Shown: one piece after another, positions 1,519 to 13,572 of the stretch | Position numbering within the stretch: position 1 is the stretch's first letter | Layout of the letters: every line of letters begins with the position of its first letter | Source: a virus | Lineage: Duplodnaviria; Heunggongvirae; Uroviricota; Caudoviricetes | DNA: 20,429 nt | Reading direction: 5' to 3' (one strand) | IMG/VR virus record: IMGVR_UViG_3300045988_007995 | Location: 1 to 20,429 of that record | Notes under the pieces: generated by a model | What the model was told of the DNA's origin: nothing | The model's database searches: none | What the model saw: only the letters and a program-made list of their open reading frames with translations | Made by a program: the position numbers and the translations under genes

Positions 1519-1581
1519 AACCATTTGCGGTAATATTTTATCTCTAGCGGTGTTGACGAAAATACCTCCGGCGGTGATACT
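1519..1581 (+). promoter_or_regulatory. Lambda-type OL3-OL2-OL1 operator triplet overlapping a PL-like sigma70 promoter (rightward in this window)
   Basis: Three 17-bp sites AACCATTTGCGGTAATA (1519-1535), TATCTCTAGCGGTGTTG (1539-1555), TACCTCCGGCGGTGATA (1563-1579) with 3-bp and 7-bp spacers; -35 TTGACG (1553-1558), 17-bp spacer, -10 GATACT (1576-1581). By recollection each operator differs from lambda OL3/OL2/OL1 at only 1-2 positions and the downstream transcript start region (acacatcagcaggacgc) is lambda-like. Confidence 0.8.
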
Positions 1582-1626
1582 AAACACATCAGCAGGACGC
1601 TGGAAGCTAAATGGAACAGACTGGCA

Positions 1627-1673
1627 GGCTCTTTAAACAACGTCGACTCTCGACTACGTGGCTGAAAAGCCAG
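1627..1673 (+). promoter_or_regulatory. candidate nutL site (boxA plus boxB hairpin) in the PL leader
   Basis: boxA-like GGCTCTTTAAACAA (1627-1640) about 40 nt downstream of the predicted PL start, followed by small hairpin TGGCT-GAAA-AGCCA (1659-1672) with a GNRA-type loop; lies between PL and the N-like gene. Confidence 0.5.
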
Positions 1674-1770
1674 ATCACCCAACCACATAAGCTGTGGGAT
1701 GCAATGCCGAAGCAACCGTCTCAGGAGGAGCTTCGAGATTGCATCACCAAAGTTTATTCGGGAGGAATCT

Positions 1771-2043
1771 ATGTCCAGAAAAACAGAATTTAAAGGCACC
1801 TCAGCTTCTCGTCGTAGAGCTCGTCGCGCAAACCTGCAAAGTCAGGAGGCGATTAGCTCCGACAAGCTACACAGACCAACCCCCTCTCGAGTGGTCTTGC
1901 AATGCAAGCGCAAACCAGCAATGAGAGCAGAAGTAATAACACTGACAACGTTGACCAGAAAATATGAAGGCTCAACTTGTCTTCCAAATGTAGCTCTTTA
2001 CGCGGCAGGCTACCGGAAATCCAAACAACTGACAGCAAGATGA
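1771..2043 (+). CDS. N: N-like transcription antitermination protein (arginine-rich motif)
   Basis: ATG at 1771 preceded by GGAGG (1761-1765); N-terminal arginine-rich motif GTSASRRRARRANLQSQ resembling the ARM of lambdoid N proteins; first gene downstream of PL and nutL. The longer ORF from 1699 lacks an RBS and overlaps the leader. Confidence 0.7.
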   Translation: MSRKTEFKGTSASRRRARRANLQSQEAISSDKLHRPTPSRVVLQCKRKPAMRAEVITLTTLTRKYEGSTCLPNVALYAAGYRKSKQLTAR

Positions 2044-7871: not shown

Positions 7872-7885
7872 CGTGACATGTCACG
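7872..7885. repeat. perfect palindrome CGTGACATGTCACG (copy 1 of 3 of the GTGACATGTCAC core)
   Basis: Exact dyad symmetry read directly; same 12-bp core recurs at 10138-10149 and 10531-10542. Confidence 0.9.
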
Positions 7886-7925
7886 AGTAGATTATGCATG
7901 ATGAATTTGATGGGTTTTGAATACT

Positions 7926-7951
7926 GCCGCCAACTATGGCGGCTTTATTTT
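7926..7951 (+). terminator. intrinsic terminator between the early operon and terS
   Basis: Hairpin GCCGCC-aactat-GGCGGC (7926-7943) followed by TTTATTTT. Confidence 0.7.
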
Positions 7952-7958
7952 GCATGGT

Positions 7959-7987
7959 ACTATTACCACAACGGTAACTATTACCAC
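7959..7987 (+). repeat. two exact 11-bp direct repeats ACTATTACCAC immediately upstream of the terS start
   Basis: Copies at 7959-7969 and 7977-7987 (18-bp period), ending 8 nt before the predicted terS ATG. Confidence 0.85.
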
Positions 7988-7994
7988 GGTGGTT

Positions 7995-8591
7995 ATGATG
8001 CCTGCTGAACCTAAAACCTATAAACGCAAATCAACGCAATTTAAGCCACTAACAGCAATGCAGGAGGCTTATTGCCAGTCATACATCAAAACGCCTGAAA
8101 ACCAGACTCAGGCAGCGATTAACGCAGGATTCTCCCCAAATACAGCGGCAGTTAAAGCCAGTCTCATGATGCGCGATGAACGCATTCAAAAACGGATTGC
8201 CGAGCTGATGGAAGAGCGCAACAAACGAATGCGCGTCAGTGCTGATTACGTTCTCATGCGCCTGGTGGAGATCGACCAGATGGACGTGATCGACATCCTC
8301 AACGACGATGGGAGCCTTAAGCCAATCCGCGAGTGGCCGAAAATCTGGCGCACTACGCTTAGTGGCTTTGATCTGTCATCGACCATCATGAACATGAACG
8401 AGGATTCGATAGAGACAATCCTCAAAAAAATTAAATGGCCTGACAAGGTGAAGAACCTCGAACTGATTGGTAAGCACGTCGACGTCAACGCATTCAAAGA
8501 ACGCCTGGATGTTAATGTGAATGTGACAATTGCTGATCGCATAGCGGCAGCCAGGAAGAGACTGAAAGAACGTCAGGATGGCAATCAGTGA
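7995..8591 (+). CDS. terS: terminase small subunit (P27-family-like)
   Basis: Located immediately upstream of and overlapping (GTGA) the large terminase gene; start placed at ATG 7995 (MMPAEPKTYKRK...) because the ORF-track extension from 7917 spans the terminator and direct repeats. Confidence 0.65.
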   Translation: MMPAEPKTYKRKSTQFKPLTAMQEAYCQSYIKTPENQTQAAINAGFSPNTAAVKASLMMRDERIQKRIAELMEERNKRMRVSADYVLMRLVEIDQMDVIDILNDDGSLKPIREWPKIWRTTLSGFDLSSTIMNMNEDSIETILKKIKWPDKVKNLELIGKHVDVNAFKERLDVNVNVTIADRIAAARKRLKERQDGNQ

Positions 8592-10063
8592 CAGATACAG
8601 CGTTATCTCCTGAAGAGCAGTTAATCGAGGATATTGCAGGGTTCACTCACGATCCGCTTGGCTATGCCCTCTATGCGTTCCCATGGGGGGAAGAGGGGAC
8701 TGAACTGGCACATGCCACCGGCCCACGTCAGTGGCAGGCTGATGCGTTCCGAGAGATACGTGATCACCTGCAGAATCCAGAGACGCGCTATCAGCCGCTT
8801 ATGCTGGCACGCGCTTCTGGTCACGGTATTGGTAAATCCGCATTCATCTCAATGCTGATCAACTGGGGCATGTCCACTTGCGAGGATTGTAAGGTCGTGG
8901 TGACCGCCAACACCGACAACCAGCTACGAACGAAGACCTGGCCGGAAATTATCAAGTGGTCGAACCTTGCTATCACGAAAGACTGGTTTACCTGTACCGC
9001 TACCGCGATGTACAGCAATGACCTAGGGCACGACAAGCGGTGGCGGGCTGACGCAATACCCTGGTCTGAGCACAACACCGAGGCATTCGCCGGACTACAC
9101 AACGAGCGCAAACGCATCATCGTGGTGTTTGATGAAGCGTCGAACATTGCGGATCTGGTGTGGGAAGTTGCCGAGGGTGCGCTTACGGACGAAGACACTG
9201 AGATTATTTGGGTGGCGTTCGGAAACCCTACACGTAACACCGGGCGTTTTCGCGAATGTTTCCGCAAATATAAACACCGCTGGAAAACTGCGCAGATTGA
9301 CAGCCGGACGGTGGAAGGCACTAACAAACAGCAGTTGCAGAAATGGGTTGATGACTACGGGGAAGACAGCGACTTCGTTAAAATCCGTGTGCGTGGCATA
9401 TTCCCTGATGCATCTGAATTGCAGTTTATCCCTACCGGTCTTACTGACGAGGCAATGAAACGGGTGGTAACCGCTGCGCAGGTTGCACATGCTCCGGTGA
9501 TAATCGGCGTTGACCCGGCATACTCCGGCGTTGATGACGCTGTGATATACCTGCGGCAGGGGCTACACAGTAAGGTGCTGTGGACTGGCAACAAGACTAC
9601 CGACGATCTGATTATGGCGAAGCGTATCGCTGACTTTGAAGACCAGTATCAGGCTGACGCGGTGTTCATCGACTTCGGTTACGGAACCGGTTTGAAGTCA
9701 ATCGGTGACGGCTGGGGTCGTACATGGCAACTTGTTCCGTTCGGTGGCGCGTCTACTGACCCGCAGATGCTCAACAAGCGTGGGGAGATGTTCAATTCAT
9801 GCAAGACATGGCTGAGGCTGGGCGGCATGCTGGATGACCAGGAAACAGCAGACGACCTGTCGGCGGCAGAGTACAAAGTTCGAGTGGACGGTAAAATCGT
9901 TATCGAACCGAAGGAAGATATCAAGGAGCGGCTTGGGCGTTCACCGGGTAAAGGCGATGCGCTACTGCTGACGTTTGCGTTCCCTGTGTCTAAGCGTCTG
10001 CGAATTCCCGGTCAGCAGAACCAGCAAGGCAAGGCCATCACAGATTACGATCCCTATGCTTAA
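8588..10063 (+). CDS. terL: terminase large subunit
   Basis: 491-aa ORF; GTG start overlapping terS stop; ATPase-like segment ...IIVVFDEASNI... (Walker B-like) and overall size and position typical of phage TerL. Confidence 0.85.
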   Translation: MTDTALSPEEQLIEDIAGFTHDPLGYALYAFPWGEEGTELAHATGPRQWQADAFREIRDHLQNPETRYQPLMLARASGHGIGKSAFISMLINWGMSTCEDCKVVVTANTDNQLRTKTWPEIIKWSNLAITKDWFTCTATAMYSNDLGHDKRWRADAIPWSEHNTEAFAGLHNERKRIIVVFDEASNIADLVWEVAEGALTDEDTEIIWVAFGNPTRNTGRFRECFRKYKHRWKTAQIDSRTVEGTNKQQLQKWVDDYGEDSDFVKIRVRGIFPDASELQFIPTGLTDEAMKRVVTAAQVAHAPVIIGVDPAYSGVDDAVIYLRQGLHSKVLWTGNKTTDDLIMAKRIADFEDQYQADAVFIDFGYGTGLKSIGDGWGRTWQLVPFGGASTDPQMLNKRGEMFNSCKTWLRLGGMLDDQETADDLSAAEYKVRVDGKIVIEPKEDIKERLGRSPGKGDALLLTFAFPVSKRLRIPGQQNQQGKAITDYDPYA

Positions 10064-10104
10064 TCCGCTGGTGGGGATAATGTCGTTGATATCCTCTGGT
10101 GAGG

Positions 10105-10133
10105 ATAAAACAAAGCCAGCTCATAGGCTGGCT
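10105..10133 (-). terminator. minus-strand intrinsic terminator downstream of the opposite-strand gene pair
   Basis: Hairpin AGCCAGC-ctatga-GCTGGCT followed on the minus strand by TTGTTTTAT; protects terL from antisense read-through. Confidence 0.5.
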
Positions 10134-10137
10134 GTTT

Positions 10138-10149
10138 GTGACATGTCAC
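10138..10149. repeat. palindrome GTGACATGTCAC (copy 2), 4 nt downstream of the gene A stop codon
   Basis: Exact 12-bp palindrome; flanking context CTGtTTGTGACATGTCACGGtGTTA nearly identical to copy 3. Confidence 0.9.
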
Positions 10150-10153
10150 GGTG

Positions 10154-10486
10154 TTATTTCGGTAGATTGTGTTTGGCATTCGACTCGTCTATCACGTAAC
10201 GCATTGCAGTTCGACCGAGATTACCAGGATCTTCATGCAGACTCACTCGTGCCTTTAGGAGCACACATTCAGCCTTGACATAGTTTGCTGGAATTATTCC
10301 TACCTCGGCATTTTTAAATGCCTCCTTCACCGCCTCACCGTTGTACTGACCGCCAAGCAACTCTGTACATGTCAGGTTGTTATGGATAATTGCAAGGAGA
10401 TCTTTAATCTCTTCACGCAGGTTTACAATCGCCATCGCGGCATTGATAGCTGCGGCATAGCGCTCAGCTGCAGTCTTCTCTTTCAT
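10154..10486 (-). CDS. hypothetical 110-aa protein (opposite-strand insert gene A)
   Basis: Minus-strand ORF; start placed at MKEKTAAERY... (ATG complement at 10484-10486) preceded by AAGGTGA; the only long ORF in this interval on either strand. Confidence 0.55.
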   Translation of the reverse strand: MKEKTAAERYAAAINAAMAIVNLREEIKDLLAIIHNNLTCTELLGGQYNGEAVKEAFKNAEVGIIPANYVKAECVLLKARVSLHEDPGNLGRTAMRYVIDESNAKHNLPK

Positions 10487-10498
10487 GATTTTCACCTT

Positions 10499-10525
10499 AA
10501 AAAAATGCCCGGCGAATCGGCGGGC
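10499..10525 (-). promoter_or_regulatory. conserved hairpin plus T7 tract directly upstream of gene A RBS (copy 1 of duplicated 5' element)
   Basis: Minus strand reads GCCCGCCGATTCGCCGGGCATTTTTTTAAGGTGAAAATCATG; terminator-like stem GCCCG/CGGGC then U-tract, immediately followed by the RBS. Confidence 0.5.
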
Positions 10526-10530
10526 TGATT

Positions 10531-10542
10531 GTGACATGTCAC
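10531..10542. repeat. palindrome GTGACATGTCAC (copy 3), 4 nt downstream of the gene B stop codon
   Basis: Exact 12-bp palindrome in context CTGaTTGTGACATGTCACGGcGTTA. Confidence 0.9.
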
Positions 10543-10546
10543 GGCG

Positions 10547-10969
10547 TTAGAAGGTTATTTTATCGAATGCGGCGTTGATTGCCTTGGCGTCCTGCTCAGC
10601 ACCAACCACATCAAGTAAAGATCTTTTACTAAGCACTTCAGCCAGGCATTGTAACTTCATGTTGTATAAGTTTTCGCGCATGTAATCATCATCACTTTTT
10701 TCTTTGGCGTATACAGCGCGAGAAATATCAAACACATTGCCTTTTTCCATTTCAGTTTTCTGCGCTGAAATCCAGTCATGGCAAGTAACTCCTATTCCAT
10801 GGTCATCGCTAAGCGTTAACCCGGCAAGTCGCTCACCTGGAATTGCTTCACAAAGCATTTCATTTCCTGCAAAAACACCATAAAAAATTGAGTCATCACC
10901 CTGAACAATGCGTACATATTTGCACGGCCATTCATTTAGATATTTAGCTAGCATGTCGGCTGTTTTCAT
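10547..10969 (-). CDS. hypothetical 140-aa protein (opposite-strand insert gene B)
   Basis: Minus-strand ORF; start placed at MKTADMLAKY... (ATG complement at 10967-10969) preceded by TAGGTGA; upstream ORF-track extension crosses the hairpin/T-tract and is rejected. Confidence 0.55.
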   Translation of the reverse strand: MKTADMLAKYLNEWPCKYVRIVQGDDSIFYGVFAGNEMLCEAIPGERLAGLTLSDDHGIGVTCHDWISAQKTEMEKGNVFDISRAVYAKEKSDDDYMRENLYNMKLQCLAEVLSKRSLLDVVGAEQDAKAINAAFDKITF

Positions 10970-10979
10970 GATCTCACCT

Positions 10980-11005
10980 AAAAAAAATGCCCGGCGAATC
11001 GGGCG
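10980..11005 (-). promoter_or_regulatory. conserved hairpin plus T8 tract directly upstream of gene B RBS (copy 2 of duplicated 5' element)
   Basis: Minus strand reads CGCCCGATTCGCCGGGCATTTTTTTTAGGTGAGATCATG; about 40 nt alignable with copy 1. Confidence 0.5.
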
Positions 11006-11045
11006 AACTGGAAGCAATGAGTTATGCCTTCCGTGGCTGTACTGG

Positions 11046-11085
11046 TTTACAGCATGAAGCCATCGCAATGGCGTCATGCTGTAAA
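11046..11085. repeat. 40-bp near-perfect nested palindrome
   Basis: TTTACAGCATGA-aGCCATcgcaATGGCg-TCATGCTGTAAA: 12-bp outer arms with a 5-bp inner dyad. Confidence 0.85.
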
Positions 11086-11124
11086 AAGGGCGGTGATAGT
11101 CCTTCAAGGGAAACCATCACCGCC
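11083..11124 (-). terminator. minus-strand terminator 43 nt downstream of the tRNA
   Basis: 9-bp stem GGCGGTGAT/ATCACCGCC with 18-nt loop, followed on the minus strand by CTTTTT. Confidence 0.5.
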
Positions 11125-11167
11125 AAGCCCCTGGAACTTCTGGCATCACGGTCCTTAGGCGTGATTC

Positions 11168-11244
11168 TGGCGTGGCATGCAGGATTCGAACCTGCGACCA
11201 ACCGCTTAGAAAGCGGTTGCTCTGTCCAGCTGAGCTAATGCCAC
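11168..11244 (-). tRNA. tRNA-Arg (anticodon UCU), phage-encoded
   Basis: 77-nt cloverleaf on the minus strand: acceptor GTGGCAT/ATGCCAC, D-stem GCTC/GAGC, anticodon stem ACCGC/GCGGT with loop TT-TCT-AA, T-stem GCAGG/CCTGC with TTCGAAT loop, discriminator G and encoded CCA. Confidence 0.85.
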
Positions 11245-11671
11245 AACGCTGAGAGCACTTAGCCTGTTAAGGCGCCACACTTTGTCGCGGCTCCATAAAT
11301 GCTCTCATCGTTGTACCCTCGTCTCTTCCGAGGCGTCACACCGAATCGCCGGGATGGTGAATCCCCGTGCGCGGAATAAAACCGCTCGACTTGCACATTC
11401 CGGCTACCTGGTTCGTTTGCCACAGCCAGGGAGGGTGCCCCTTAAACGTATCCAGACCGCTATCGGCGCATGTGCCATACGCCGTACTGCTCAAAATAAA
11501 AGCTCACTCCACCTGTTCAATTTAACGACAAGCCAGTCAGGTTAGTAACCGGAATGAACTCTTTGGTTACCTGAAAGGTAATAATTTGTGCGTTAAATGT
11601 CAACTACCTACGATAAATAAATCATATGTGGTTAAATTGGTAATAATTTAATTGCGTACGGAGTCATTGAT

Positions 11672-11878
11672 ATGTGCATGGGTAGCTCACCATCAGTGCC
11701 TGCAACACCAGAAGTTCAGGCAGCACCACAGGAGCAGGATGCCGCCGTTGTTGATGCCCGCGACGAAGAAACTCGTCGCCGTCGCGCTGCTGCTGGTCGT
11801 AGTTCTACGCTGCTTACCGGTTCTCAGGGCGACACATCAACCGCTAATACCAGCGGTAAAACGCTGCTTGGTCAGTAA
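11672..11878 (+). CDS. small virion-associated protein candidate (T7 gp6.7-like?), 68 aa
   Basis: ATG at 11672 preceded by GGAG; begins MC..., Ser/Pro/Ala-rich; immediately upstream of the portal gene, whose leader shares the motif CGGAGTCATTGA(t/a)ATG. Confidence 0.45.
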   Translation: MCMGSSPSVPATPEVQAAPQEQDAAVVDARDEETRRRRAAAGRSSTLLTGSQGDTSTANTSGKTLLGQ

Positions 11879-11892
11879 CCGGAGTCATTGAA

Positions 11893-13572
11893 ATGGCGGA
11901 AACAACTAAAGAGCGATTGAACAAACAGTTCGCACAACTTGAAAGCGAGCGTCAGTCGTTCGAGCCGCACTGGCGCGAGTTGAGTGATTACATCAACCCG
12001 CGTGGTTCCCGCTTTCTGACTTCTGAGGTCAACCGTAACGATCGACGCAATACACGCATTATTGATTCGACCGGGACTATGGCGGCGCGCACTCTCGCCA
12101 GCGGCATGATGTCAGGCATCACAAGCCCCGCGCGTCCGTGGTTTCGCCTGGCTACGCCAGATCCTGAAATGATGGATTATGGCCCTGTTAAGTTGTGGCT
12201 TGAGGCGGTGCAGAACCGCATGAACGATATGTTCAATAAGTCGAATCTCTATCAGTCGCTGCCGCAGTTATACGGAAGCCTCGGCACATACAGCACTGGT
12301 GCAATGGCAGTGCTGGAGGATGACGAGGACATCATTCGCACAATGCCATTCCCGATAGGCAGTTACTACCTGGCTAACTCACCTCGTGGCAGTGTGGACA
12401 CCTGTTTTCGCAAGTTCTCTATGACTGTTCGTCAGCTTGTTCAGGAGTTCGGGCTAAATAACGTCAGCGAATCCGTAAAAAGCATGTGGGAAAGCGGAAC
12501 CTACGAGAAGTGGATTGAAGTGATGCATTCGGTTTACCCGAACATTGACCGCGATACATCGAAGCTGGATAGCAAGAACAAGCCATTCAAATCGGTTTAT
12601 TACGAGGTTGGTGGCGATAACGACAAGTTGTTGCGTGAGTCCGGATTCGATGAGTTTCCAATTATGGCTCCGCGCTGGGAAGTTAACGGCGAAGATGTTT
12701 ATGGATCATCATGCCCGGGTATGCTGGCGCTTGGACCTGTTAAGGCATTGCAGCTTCTCCAGAAGCGCAAGTCGCAGTTGATTGATAAAGCCACCAATCC
12801 GCCGATGGTTGCTCCGACTTCCCTCAAGAATCAGCGTGCCTCCCTTCTTCCTGGCGACATCACGTATATCGATCAGATTACTGGTCAGGATGGTTTCAGG
12901 CCTGCTTATCTGGTTAACCCCAGTACAGCAGATTTGGTGGCAGACATTCAGGACACCCGTCAAATCATTAACAGCGCCTACTTTGTCGATCTGTTCATGA
13001 TGTTGCAGAACATCAATACCCGCTCGATGCCTGTTGAAGCGGTGATCGAAATGAAAGAAGAAAAACTTCTGATGTTGGGGCCGGTTCTGGAGCGTCTGAA
13101 CGACGAATGTCTTAATCCTCTCATTGACCGCGCTTTCTCGATGATGGTGCGTAAAAACATGCTGCCGCCACCGCCTGACGCGATGGAAGGTATGCCCCTG
13201 AAGGTCGAATACATTTCCGTCATGGCTCAGGCGCAGAAGTCTATCGGCCTGTCCAGTCTGGCGTCTACGGTCAACTTCATTGGTCAACTTGCGCAAGCGA
13301 AACCAGAAGCTCTCGACAAACTCAACGTTGATCAGGCGATCGATGCATTCGCTGATATGTCCGGAGTGTCTCCAACCGTCATTGTTCCGCAGGAACAGGT
13401 TGAGCAGGCTCGCCAGCAACGGGCACAGCAACAACAGCAGCAACAAATGATGGCGATGGGGATGGCGGCGGCACAGGGTGCCAAGACGCTAAGCGAAGCT
13501 AAAACTTCGGATCCGAGTGTTTTGTCAGCTATGGCGAATGCAGTTAGTGGTCAGGGTGGGCAATCACAATGA
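11893..13572 (+). CDS. portal (head-to-tail connector) protein, T7 gp8-like
   Basis: 559-aa ORF following terL; C-terminal Q/A/M-rich tract (QQRAQQQQQQQMMAMGMAAAQGAK) resembles the T7 connector C-terminus as I recall it. Confidence 0.8.
   Translation: MAETTKERLNKQFAQLESERQSFEPHWRELSDYINPRGSRFLTSEVNRNDRRNTRIIDSTGTMAARTLASGMMSGITSPARPWFRLATPDPEMMDYGPVKLWLEAVQNRMNDMFNKSNLYQSLPQLYGSLGTYSTGAMAVLEDDEDIIRTMPFPIGSYYLANSPRGSVDTCFRKFSMTVRQLVQEFGLNNVSESVKSMWESGTYEKWIEVMHSVYPNIDRDTSKLDSKNKPFKSVYYEVGGDNDKLLRESGFDEFPIMAPRWEVNGEDVYGSSCPGMLALGPVKALQLLQKRKSQLIDKATNPPMVAPTSLKNQRASLLPGDITYIDQITGQDGFRPAYLVNPSTADLVADIQDTRQIINSAYFVDLFMMLQNINTRSMPVEAVIEMKEEKLLMLGPVLERLNDECLNPLIDRAFSMMVRKNMLPPPPDAMEGMPLKVEYISVMAQAQKSIGLSSLASTVNFIGQLAQAKPEALDKLNVDQAIDAFADMSGVSPTVIVPQEQVEQARQQRAQQQQQQQMMAMGMAAAQGAKTLSEAKTSDPSVLSAMANAVSGQGGQSQ

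What the first reader, a model, noticed from the sequence alone, without database searches (positions are those of the whole stretch)
11046..11085. 40-bp nested palindrome between the tRNA terminator and gene B
The 12-bp arms TTTACAGCATGA/TCATGCTGTAAA enclose an inner GCCAT/ATGGC dyad. A long perfect dyad of this size is rare by chance and could be an operator, a processing site or a recombination site.
Basis: seen in the sequence. Interest (0 to 1): 0.45.

Follow-up and report, generated by a model that had tools for sequence, protein, structure and literature searches.

The report
Conserved hairpin beside phage tRNA terminator
The 40-base palindrome is real and belongs to a conserved, previously unannotated hairpin found at the same spot in epsilon15/phiV10-like phages of enteric bacteria; it is probably a small regulatory or RNA-processing signal, but its function has not been shown.

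Summary
The palindrome is present exactly as described (11046-11085: 12-bp arms, one A/G mismatch, inner 5-bp dyad, CGCA loop). Shuffles predict 0.025 such repeats per window. The window is a Uetakevirus (epsilon15/phiV10-like) prophage or phage. The element lies in a minus-strand noncoding stretch between the large terminase gene and gp3/portal, in the order tRNA-Arg, terminator 1, palindrome, terminator 2, cargo genes. Homologous copies occur at the same position in at least 133 other phage and prophage loci and once per genome in about 10% of complete E. coli genomes. It is the most conserved intergenic block. However, the family consensus is imperfect, and the window copy is the most perfect one sampled. 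The outer 8 bp and the apex barely vary, while the middle keeps pairing through compensatory changes. The neighbouring terminators covary freely. Most variants fold better as plus-strand RNA, which is the strand of the N-antiterminated early-left/late transcript. Some close relatives lack it together with terminator 1, so it is accessory. It is not a terminator, promoter, dispersed repeat, attP, pac site or Rfam family. My best guess, at low confidence, is a protein-recognised RNA hairpin that acts in processing or stability. A DNA operator is the main rival. Interest is modest.

The parts
11046..11085 (.). The 40-nt nested palindrome/hairpin: 12-bp outer stem, A/G mismatch, 5-bp inner stem, CGCA loop. 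It is a member of a conserved Uetakevirus intergenic element with consensus TTTACAGCATGAAGTCATCGCAATGGCGTCCTGCTGTAAA.
   Evidence: establish presence and rarity. Searches show conservation. Searches give pairing and covariation. One search gives folding energies: window copy -31.5 (+) and -24.1 (-) kcal/mol in a 60-nt context; consensus copy -24.4 (+, z -4.1) and -12.8 (-, z -1.6).
11089..11128 (-). Terminator 1, the tRNA terminator: GGCGGTGAT...ATCACCGCC followed by CTTTTT. The T-run runs into the palindrome's TTTACA.
   Evidence: 14 pairs, minus strand. The stem covaries among relatives (GGCGGTGAT / GGCGGTGG..CAG / GGCGGTACCAG / GTCGGTACCAG).
10981..11004 (-). Terminator 2: GCCCGATTCGCCGGGC plus T8. 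It directly abuts the Shine-Dalgarno sequence of gene B and marks the edge of the variable cargo slot. It is annotated as a rho-independent terminator in epsilon15.
   Evidence: Compensatory changes are seen (GC/AU/CG at two pairs). The variants are listed.
11005..11045 (.). Conserved spacer block between terminator 2 and the palindrome (GAACTGGAAGCAATG...TGCCTTCCNTGGC...GGG), with a possible small hairpin GGAAG/CTTCC.
   Evidence: Alignments. It is deleted in PAS61 and L048.
11145..11165 (-). Small conserved hairpin ATCACG-GTCCTTAGG-CGTGAT in the tRNA 3' trailer. It is kept even in relatives that lack the palindrome.
11168..11244 (-). tRNA-Arg (anticodon TCT).
10547..10969 (-). Gene B, 140 aa of unknown function (phrog_4846). 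It is the first gene of the variable minus-strand cargo slot.
   Evidence: Homology with most relatives stops at its start codon.
10154..10537 (-). Second cargo ORF, 127 aa (phrog_27507). It is absent from the closest phage, PAS61.

Best explanation
The palindrome is one copy of a conserved accessory cis-element of enterobacterial Uetakeviruses (epsilon15/phiV10 group). It is an imperfect hairpin of about 18 bp placed right after the terminator of the phage tRNA (or pseudo-tRNA) gene, in the long untranslated gap between the large terminase gene and gp3/portal.

I think it most likely acts as RNA. When the region is transcribed it folds into a hairpin whose base (TTTACAGC/GCTGTAAA) and apex (GTCATCGCAATGGCG) are recognised sequence-specifically. 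That recognition would serve as a processing or stability signal: an RNase III-type or other nuclease/protein site that cuts or protects the transcript at the junction of two convergent transcription units.

The more likely carrier is the plus-strand transcript. This is the N-antiterminated early-left/late RNA that runs from PL through terminase and must cross the antisense tRNA/cargo cassette to reach gp3-portal.

Shown here: existence, conservation, fixed synteny, pairing maintained by compensatory change, better folding on the plus strand, and dispensability in some relatives.

Inferred only: that the element acts as RNA, which strand matters, which factor binds or cleaves it, and the consequence.

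The near-perfect symmetry of this window's copy is best explained as two secondary 'perfecting' substitutions (T15>C and C31>A) on an imperfect ancestral hairpin. It is not the functional requirement.
For: (1) Conservation above background. In a 14-phage alignment spanning four host genera, 33 of 43 invariant columns fall within or directly beside the palindrome (first-sequence positions 85-126), while the flanks average about 65% column identity. 133 other phage and prophage loci carry the element, and it always lies between TerL and gp3/portal wherever those genes are within the fetched DNA. 530 of 5426 E. coli genomes carry the module, with a median of one copy per genome that has it.

(2) Evidence for a hairpin rather than plain duplex DNA. 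The variable middle (pairs 9-13 with 28-32) keeps pairing despite 5 substitutions between the two main clades: 11-30 switches GC to AT, 12-29 switches AT to GC, and 13-28 goes from A.G to C-G. 88% of cells are paired, against 29-52% when partners are slid. The covariation score exceeded all 500 shuffles.

(3) Evidence for the plus strand. U15.G26 is the state in 19 of 24 variants and G9.U32 is the state in 8 of 24, chiefly the GCAAC-type (Salmonella/Enterobacter) variants. Both would be A.C mismatches on the minus strand. Counted over the 22 variants, mismatches are 46 on plus versus 67 on minus. RNAalifold gives -25.7 versus -19.1 kcal/mol. Mean 40-mer MFE is -16.4 versus -13.4, and plus is better in 19 of 24 variants. 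The consensus copy folds at z = -4.1 on plus and -1.6 on minus.

(4) Evidence that the plus strand is transcribed through the element. The window has a lambda-like PL/OL, nutL (boxA plus GAAAA boxB) and an N-like gene. All are on the plus strand upstream of TerS/TerL, and the gene order continues uninterrupted. No plus-strand terminator was found between 10150 and 11670.

(5) Evidence for sequence-specific constraint. The two genuine terminators next door change their stems freely by compensatory substitution in the same genomes. The palindrome's outer 8 bp and apex are almost invariant.
Against: No experimental or transcript data exist for this region. Rfam has no family for it.

The strand argument rests on few independent substitution events. 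A.C states, which favour the minus strand, occur at 12-29 in six variants and at 15-26 in one.

Eight of 18 pairs never vary. They therefore say nothing about pairing, and this invariance fits a DNA site as well as a sequence-read RNA.

An 18-bp stem with 1-3 mismatches is short for a classical RNase III substrate, and RNase III does not need conserved sequence.

The element is missing from relatives with 73-93% identical TerL and about 80% identical portal, so whatever it does is not essential.

On the minus strand it lies downstream of a strong terminator. Minus-strand RNA carrying it should therefore be scarce, which weakens any minus-strand reading but does not prove the plus-strand one.
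Confidence: 0.35

Rival explanations
1. The palindrome is a DNA-level protein-binding site: an operator or transcriptional roadblock. A dimeric phage or host protein would read the inverted outer boxes TTTACAGC / GCTGTAAA (centres about three helical turns apart) and the central GTCAT-CGCA-ATGGC core. It would control or insulate transcription at the convergent junction between the late operon and the tRNA/cargo unit.
For: Both arms and the apex are nearly invariant, unlike the freely covarying terminator stems beside them. The element is retained through several independent rearrangements of its flanks (PAS61 deletion, BUCT711 insertion, epsilon15 replacement). Transition intermediates of both polarities occur (G.T and A.C on the plus strand), as expected if neither RNA strand is selected.
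Against: No sigma-70-like promoter lies nearby for it to regulate (0 found in 10000-12000). The half-site is not repeated elsewhere in the window. The most common versions are asymmetric at 10-31, 13-28 and 15-26, while compensatory change at 11-30 and 12-29 preserves pairing in a segment a dimer would treat as spacer. No candidate binding protein was identified.
Confidence: 0.22
2. The palindrome acts as a minus-strand RNA element in a sib-like retroregulation or read-through processing mechanism. Transcripts that escape the tRNA terminator would fold the hairpin and be cleaved or degraded. This would uncouple the tRNA from the cargo genes downstream of terminator 2, or silence those genes.
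For: The minus strand is certainly transcribed, since it carries the tRNA and two intrinsic terminators. In every arrangement the palindrome directly follows a GC-rich hairpin on the minus strand and supplies its U-tract. This holds even in BUCT711, where an 81-aa gene with its own hairpin is inserted in front of it. Cargo genes start immediately after terminator 2 with no room for a promoter. The window's own copy folds equally well on both strands as a bare 40-mer.
Against: The family consensus folds poorly on the minus strand (-12.8 kcal/mol, z = -1.6, 12 of 200 shuffles as good). The near-universal T15.G26 is an A.C mismatch there. Relatives without the palindrome have the same terminator-2/SD/cargo layout (L140), so cargo expression does not depend on it.
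Confidence: 0.15
3. The palindrome is a recombination scar or anchor with no dedicated function. It would persist because it sits at the border of a gene-shuffling hot spot, and replication template switching (quasi-palindrome correction) would keep it hairpin-like or make it more so.
For: The region is a cargo hot spot. The distance from TerL to the palindrome ranges from 52 to 1178 nt with many different genes. One insertion junction lies exactly at the palindrome's right end, with a GTAAA duplication. The palindrome plus terminator 1 is a presence/absence indel of about 110 nt among close relatives. Single 'perfecting' changes (A31 or C15) recur in different backgrounds and are combined in the window.
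Against: A neutral scar should decay at the rate of its flanks. Instead it is far more conserved than they are, across phages whose portal proteins are only about 60-65% identical. Most cargo exchange points lie at the T-run of terminator 2, 45-75 nt away, not in the palindrome.
Confidence: 0.15

Closest known systems
Lambda sib / tI retroregulation site and T7 intercistronic RNase III sites (for example R1.1)
   Same: All are irregular intergenic hairpins with internal mismatches in long polycistronic phage transcripts. They sit next to or overlap an intrinsic terminator and act, or here are proposed to act, after read-through by antiterminated polymerase. The phage in this window has a lambda-type N/nut system.
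   Different: No cleavage has been shown. The stem is only 18 bp. The sequence, not just the shape, is conserved. There is no sequence similarity to sib or the T7 sites, and no Rfam hit. The comparison rests on my own knowledge of those systems and was not tested.
Intrinsic (rho-independent) terminators
   Same: Both are GC-containing stem-loops in an intergenic region, and this one is flanked by two real terminators.
   Different: No T-run follows the stem on either strand: AAAAAGGG follows on plus and AAACCAG on minus. The terminator scan does not call it. Its stems do not covary as the neighbouring terminators' stems do.
Moron or cassette boundary elements (lambdoid moron promoter/terminator borders, T4 PeSL, integron attC)
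   Same: All are conserved structured sequences next to a slot that holds different accessory genes in different phages. Like attC, this one is an imperfect palindrome with conserved outer boxes and a variable middle.
   Different: Exchange points mostly lie at the terminator 2 T-run, not in the palindrome. There is no integron integrase or GTTRRRY core. There is a single copy per genome rather than one per cassette. The element persists where there is no cargo at all (L043, L074).
Phage operators (lambda OL/OR type)
   Same: Both have dyad symmetry and strong sequence conservation.
   Different: This phage's own lambda-like operators (TACCTCCGGCGGTGATA at PL) are unrelated in sequence and are 17 bp long. 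The palindrome is 40 bp, lies away from any recognisable promoter and occurs only once.

Membership tests
Intrinsic terminator | GC-rich hairpin followed within 0-2 nt by a T/U-rich tract on the transcribed strand | tested here: not met
   One search lists terminators at 11124-11089 and 11004-10989 but not the palindrome. The sequence after the stem is AAAAAGGG on plus and AAACCAGT on minus.
Dispersed palindromic repeats (REP/MITE/IS ends) | Many copies per genome in unrelated contexts | tested here: not met
   There is one copy in the window. The median is one copy per E. coli genome that has it, and the three copies inspected sit between terminase and portal genes. All 133 loci are syntenic.
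attP / site-specific recombination core | Lies next to the integrase and shares an identical core with the bacterial attB | tested here: not met
   In the related phage ZX5, attP (attgagtgggaatgatt) lies 190 bp from the integrase and matches the 3' end of guaA (PMC9782041). The palindrome sits between TerL and portal.
pac / terminase recognition site | Present in every phage that shares the orthologous terminase | tested here: not met
   It is absent from prophages with 73-93% identical TerL (L140, L142, L145, L146) and from the Rahnella and Providencia relatives.
Sigma-70 promoter | -35 and -10 hexamers with 16-18 bp spacing | tested here: not met
   One search found 0 promoter-like sites in 10000-12000 on either strand. 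By eye, TTTACA has no acceptable -10 hexamer 17 bp downstream on either strand.
LexA (SOS) box | CTGT-N8-ACAG conserved at the site | tested here: not met
   CTGTACTGGTTTACAG (11037-11052) overlaps the left arm in the E. coli clade only. The Klebsiella, Salmonella and Enterobacter versions lack the CTGT half.
RNase III processing hairpin (sib / T7 R1.1 type) | Extended irregular double-stranded RNA stem (about two helical turns) within a transcript | tested here: inconclusive
   The stem has 18 pairs with 1-3 mismatches and forms on plus-strand RNA at -16 to -24 kcal/mol. That is shorter than classical substrates.
RNase III processing hairpin (sib / T7 R1.1 type) | Cleavage by RNase III in vivo or in vitro | not testable with these tools
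   This needs rnc+/rnc- end mapping or in vitro cleavage.
Known RNA families (Rfam 15) | Score at or above a family's gathering threshold | tested here: not met
   Searches gave only the tRNA and Lambda_thermo in the window. Nothing overlapped 11046-11085, even at E up to 10.
Lambda-type nut site (boxA + boxB) | boxA (YGCTCTTWA) about 8-10 nt upstream of a short hairpin with a GAAAA-type loop | tested here: not met
   The phage's nutL has GCTCTTTAA plus GGCTGAAAAGCC. The palindrome has no boxA next to it and has a CGCA loop.
Integron attC | R''/L''-L'/R' boxes with GTTRRRY core, one site per cassette, IntI integrase | tested here: not met
   There is no GTTRRRY core in the sequence. There is a single copy irrespective of the number of cargo genes. 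No integron integrase was looked for beyond the window.

The most novel reading that the evidence does not exclude
The hairpin may be a dedicated recognition site for an as yet unidentified sequence-specific RNA- or DNA-binding factor that governs the hypervariable accessory-gene and tRNA island of Uetakeviruses. One form of this idea is a translational or processing operator that mimics the gp3/portal ribosome-binding region (15 of 18 nt identical to the portal start region in the E. coli clade). Another is the anchor of a cassette-exchange mechanism.
Probability: 0.1. Interest if true: 0.6.

Novelty: new member of a known kind. Interest (0 to 1): 0.3.

Why it matters
If the element is functional, it would be a small, easily tested cis-signal at the point where two convergent transcription units meet. 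One unit is the N-antiterminated late operon. The other is a prophage-expressed tRNA/accessory-gene cassette. The phages concerned are used as O157 and Salmonella typing and reporter phages. Knowing what the element does would help in engineering that locus, which is a natural cargo slot, and would correct database annotation that currently reads the region as a protein. It is not a new principle of biology.

Tried and rejected
- Rfam at gathering and permissive thresholds, on the window and on eight relatives: nothing at the palindrome.
- Promoter scan: none found.
- Terminator: not called, and there is no T-run.
- Dispersed repeat: single copy.
- attP: lies elsewhere.
- pac site: rejected, because close relatives with orthologous terminase lack the element.
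- LexA box overlapping the left arm: not conserved outside the E. coli clade.
- Sigma-54, sigma-E, CRP, IHF, DnaA and LacI-family half-sites: checked by eye against consensus sequences recalled from memory. None fit, and none was tested formally.
- Coding potential: the only AUGs are not conserved, and indels in the neighbouring terminator loops are not multiples of three. The 83-aa ORF annotated in phiV10 is therefore probably spurious.
- Antisense target search: the apex motif matches only the portal start region, and that similarity is confined to the E. coli clade, so it is probably coincidental or the result of local conversion.
- More distant relatives (Cobetia, Vibrio, Pseudomonas, Bordetella phages): they have no antisense cassette and no counterpart of the element.
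- Literature searches for epsilon15/phiV10/Uetakevirus with tRNA, packaging, RNase III or boxA terms: no description of the element was found. The epsilon15 genome paper is not held in the library.

Full report
**Observation.** The sequence at 11046-11085 reads TTTACAGCATGA A GCCAT CGCA ATGGC G TCATGCTGTAAA. The repeat finder scores it as 18-nt arms, 94% complementary. It is the longest close inverted repeat in the window. No shuffle of the window reproduced it. A perfect inverted repeat with arms of at least 12 bp and a spacer of at most 20 nt is expected only 0.025 times per shuffled window.

**Context.** The window is a Uetakevirus, of the epsilon15/phiV10 group. The best DNA match is vB_EcoP_PAS61, followed by HEMP4, phiV10, the O157 typing phages 9 and 10, and TL-2011b.
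- On the plus strand lie a lambda-like PL/OL, nutL (boxA plus a GAAAA boxB), an N-like antiterminator, the cIII thermoregulator, recombination genes, TerS (7917-8591), TerL (8588-10063), gp3 (11672-11878) and portal (11893-13572).
- Between TerL and gp3 lies a minus-strand island. In minus-strand order it holds tRNA-Arg(TCT) at 11244-11168, a small trailer hairpin, a strong intrinsic terminator ('terminator 1', 11124-11089 plus CTTTTT), the palindrome, a conserved spacer, a second terminator ('terminator 2', 11004-10989 plus T8), and then, with no gap, the Shine-Dalgarno sequence and ATG of gene B (10969-10547). A further ORF follows at 10537-10154.
- Both cargo proteins belong to PHROG families of unknown function.

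**Conservation.** A BLAST-based alignment of 14 phages from E. coli, Salmonella, Klebsiella and Enterobacter hosts shows that the palindrome is the most conserved block of the whole intergenic region. 33 of 43 invariant columns lie in it or directly beside it, against a mean column identity of 65%.
- Together with the GenBank loci I examined 133 copies. Wherever the flanking genes are within the fetched DNA, the element lies between TerL and gp3/portal.
- In complete E. coli genomes the module occurs in 530 of 5426, with a median of one copy per genome that has it. The places listed are almost all unannotated, and the three I inspected lie between terminase and portal genes.
- It is therefore a real, lineage-specific, single-copy element and not a dispersed repeat.

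**What exactly is conserved.** The dominant family sequence is TTTACAGCATGAAGTCATCGCAATGGCGTCCTGCTGTAAA. It has two internal mismatches (10-31 and 13-28) and a T.G at 15-26.
- The window's version carries C15 and A31. It was the only copy of its kind among 134 and is the most perfect. The 'long perfect dyad' is thus an exception.
- Each of the two perfecting changes also occurs singly in other backgrounds. This is what template-switch 'quasi-palindrome correction' would produce, but that is an inference.
- Across 24 distinct variants, pairs 2-6 and 16-18 never vary, and pairs 1, 8 and 14 vary only once each. The middle (9-13 with 28-32) differs between clades yet stays paired: 11-30 is GC in 10 variants and AT in 12, 12-29 changes from AT to GC in 3, and 13-28 goes from A.G to C-G.
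- 88% of cells pair, against 29-52% when partners are slid. The covariation score exceeds all 500 column shuffles. Relatedness inflates that statistic, so I treat it as supportive only.
- In the same genomes the stems of terminators 1 and 2 change freely by compensatory substitution.
- The contrast suggests that the palindrome is constrained both in shape (middle) and in sequence (base and apex). This is the signature of a hairpin that something reads.

**Which strand.** The persistent non-Watson-Crick states are G.U-type on the plus strand. U15.G26 is found in 19 of 24 variants and G9.U32 in 8 of 24, chiefly the GCAAC-type (Salmonella/Enterobacter) variants. On the minus strand both would be A.C mismatches.
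- Over the 22 variants, mismatches total 46 on plus and 67 on minus.
- RNAalifold gives -25.7 versus -19.1 kcal/mol for the module.
- The consensus copy folds at -24.4 kcal/mol (z = -4.1) on plus and -12.8 (z = -1.6) on minus.
- The plus strand is more stable in 19 of 24 variants.
- Counter-examples exist: A.C at 12-29 in six variants and C.A at 15-26 in one. The number of independent events is small, so the strand call is a lean and not a proof.
- The plus strand is the sense strand of the N/PL operon, which runs without interruption into TerS, TerL and, across this island, gp3-portal. Plus-strand RNA containing the hairpin should therefore be made during lytic growth.
- Minus-strand RNA containing it requires read-through of a 14-bp-stem terminator.

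**The element is accessory.** Among GTDB prophages with portal about 80% and TerL 73-93% identical, five carry the element (Superficieibacter, Pseudocitrobacter, two Citrobacter, Erwinia dacicola). Four lack it together with terminator 1 while keeping terminator 2 and the trailer hairpin (Scandinavium, Kluyvera, Buttiauxella, Pseudescherichia vulneris). This is an indel of about 110 nt.
- More distant Rahnella, Advenella and Providencia prophages also lack it.
- Cobetia, Vibrio, Pseudomonas and Bordetella relatives have no antisense island at all.
- This rules out a pac site or any essential role.
- The element nevertheless survives several independent rearrangements of its flanks: a deletion up to its left edge in PAS61, replacement of half of terminator 1 in epsilon15, and insertion of an 81-aa gene between terminator 1 and the palindrome in BUCT711. 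It also persists where there is no cargo gene at all (L043, L032, L074).

**What it is not.**
- It is not an intrinsic terminator, because neither strand has a T-run after the stem.
- It is not a sigma-70 promoter.
- It is not a LexA box. A CTGT-N8-ACAG overlaps the left arm, but only in the E. coli clade.
- It is not attP, which lies by the integrase and matches guaA (PMC9782041).
- It is not an Rfam family.
- It is not coding. The 83-aa ORF annotated over it in phiV10 and TL-2011b spans two terminators and the antisense of the tRNA.
- The epsilon15 GenBank record annotates terminator 2 and, further downstream, a predicted RNase III site, an IHF site and a repressor site, but nothing at the palindrome.

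**Mechanism.** My best-supported reading (confidence about 0.35) is a cis-acting RNA hairpin, more likely on the plus-strand polycistronic transcript. It would be recognised at its base and apex by a protein or nuclease and would act as a processing or stability signal at the convergent junction. This is functionally akin to lambda sib or the T7 intercistronic RNase III sites. I do not claim membership of those classes: the stem is short, the sequence conservation is atypical, and cleavage is untested.

The rivals are:
- a double-stranded DNA operator or roadblock (0.22), favoured by the invariance of both arms but lacking a promoter, a partner protein or repeated half-sites;
- a minus-strand sib-like element (0.15), favoured by its fixed position immediately after a terminator hairpin but disfavoured by poor folding of the consensus on that strand;
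- a recombination scar maintained by template switching (0.15), favoured by the hot-spot context but disfavoured by conservation well above that of the flanks.

**Verdict.** The feature is real and conserved, and to my knowledge undescribed (limited literature search). It belongs to a familiar general kind, the phage intergenic regulatory or processing hairpin, and its function is unknown. Interest is modest.

Noticed in passing
window 7873-7884, 10138-10149, 10531-10542: The 12-bp perfect palindrome GTGACATGTCAC occurs three times exactly, against 0.06 expected. The sites are just upstream of TerS, just after the TerL bidirectional terminator, and between the two cargo ORFs. In relatives the core TGACATGTCA recurs about 2.2-3.9 kb upstream of the 40-bp palindrome (consistent with a position just upstream of TerS, as at the window's own site) and a few hundred nt upstream of it, downstream of TerL: 155 hits in 1.13 Mb of loci. 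It may be a regulator-binding or cassette-boundary site.
   Followed up: partly
window 11168-11244 (-) and the same slot in L157, L159, L043, L082, L142 and others: The tRNA slot is polymorphic. It holds tRNA-Arg(TCT) in this window and many relatives. In others it holds a 113-150-nt tRNA-like sequence with a 9-bp closing stem (GTTGTGGTG/CACCACAAC). ARAGORN does not call it, and PGAP labels it 'pseudogenic tRNA-Gly'.
   Followed up: partly
window 11238-11485: The noncoding stretch just upstream of the tRNA on the minus strand is about 82% identical to unannotated DNA in unrelated phages: mEp460 and cdtI (in mEp460 it lies next to the prophage repressor gene), 2H10, and P7 (between tRNA-Ile and ban). 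It contains a plus-strand boxA-like TGCTCT(C/T)A (11300-11307) followed 9 nt later by the hairpin CCTCG-TCTCTTC-CGAGG (11317-11333). The boxA-like motif is conserved as far as a Rahnella prophage; the hairpin is conserved in the closer relatives (Salmonella, Klebsiella and Kluyvera loci) but not in Rahnella. There is no Rfam family for it.
   Followed up: partly
window 10064-10980 and the same interval in 119 loci: There is a hypervariable minus-strand cargo slot between TerL and terminator 2. It spans 52-1178 nt between the end of TerL and the 40-bp palindrome and holds many unrelated small genes. In most cases the Shine-Dalgarno sequence abuts the T-run of terminator 2, leaving no room for a promoter.
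   Followed up: partly
window 10987-11238 (+): An 83-aa ORF is annotated as a hypothetical protein in phiV10 (PhiV10p04) and TL-2011b. It spans terminator 2, the palindrome, terminator 1 and the antisense of tRNA-Arg, so it is very likely a spurious gene call.
   Followed up: partly
window 11884-11898 and 11660-11674 versus 11055-11073: In the E. coli clade the centre of the palindrome (GAAGTCATCGCAATGGCG) resembles the portal start region (GGAGTCATTGAAATGGCG, 15/18) and the gp3 start region (GGAGTCATTGATATG). In other clades the portal start region differs while the palindrome does not, so this is probably coincidence or local conversion.
   Followed up: yes
window 1550-2040 and 2937-2995: There is a lambda-like PL (TTGACG/GATACT) with OL-type operators (TACCTCCGGCGGTGATA), nutL (boxA GCTCTTTAA, boxB GGCTGAAAAGCC), an N-like gene and the cIII thermoregulator. 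All are on the plus strand, so the early-left operon runs directly into the terminase and structural genes.
   Followed up: partly
L009 (Klebsiella phage BUCT711) 1611-1880; also L089: An 81-aa minus-strand gene is inserted exactly between terminator 1 and the palindrome, flanked by a GTAAA duplication. Its own hairpin (GCCGCATTAGGCGGC) reads as a good plus-strand terminator (T4-T6) directly after the palindrome.
   Followed up: partly
L005 (Enterobacter phage Tyrion) 1021-1085 (-): There is an Rfam int-alpA RNA hit (44 bits, above the gathering threshold) inside the cargo region of Tyrion.
   Followed up: no
window 11037-11052: CTGTACTGGTTTACAG fits the LexA-box core CTGT-N8-ACAG and overlaps the palindrome's left arm. 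It is present only in the E. coli clade.
   Followed up: yes
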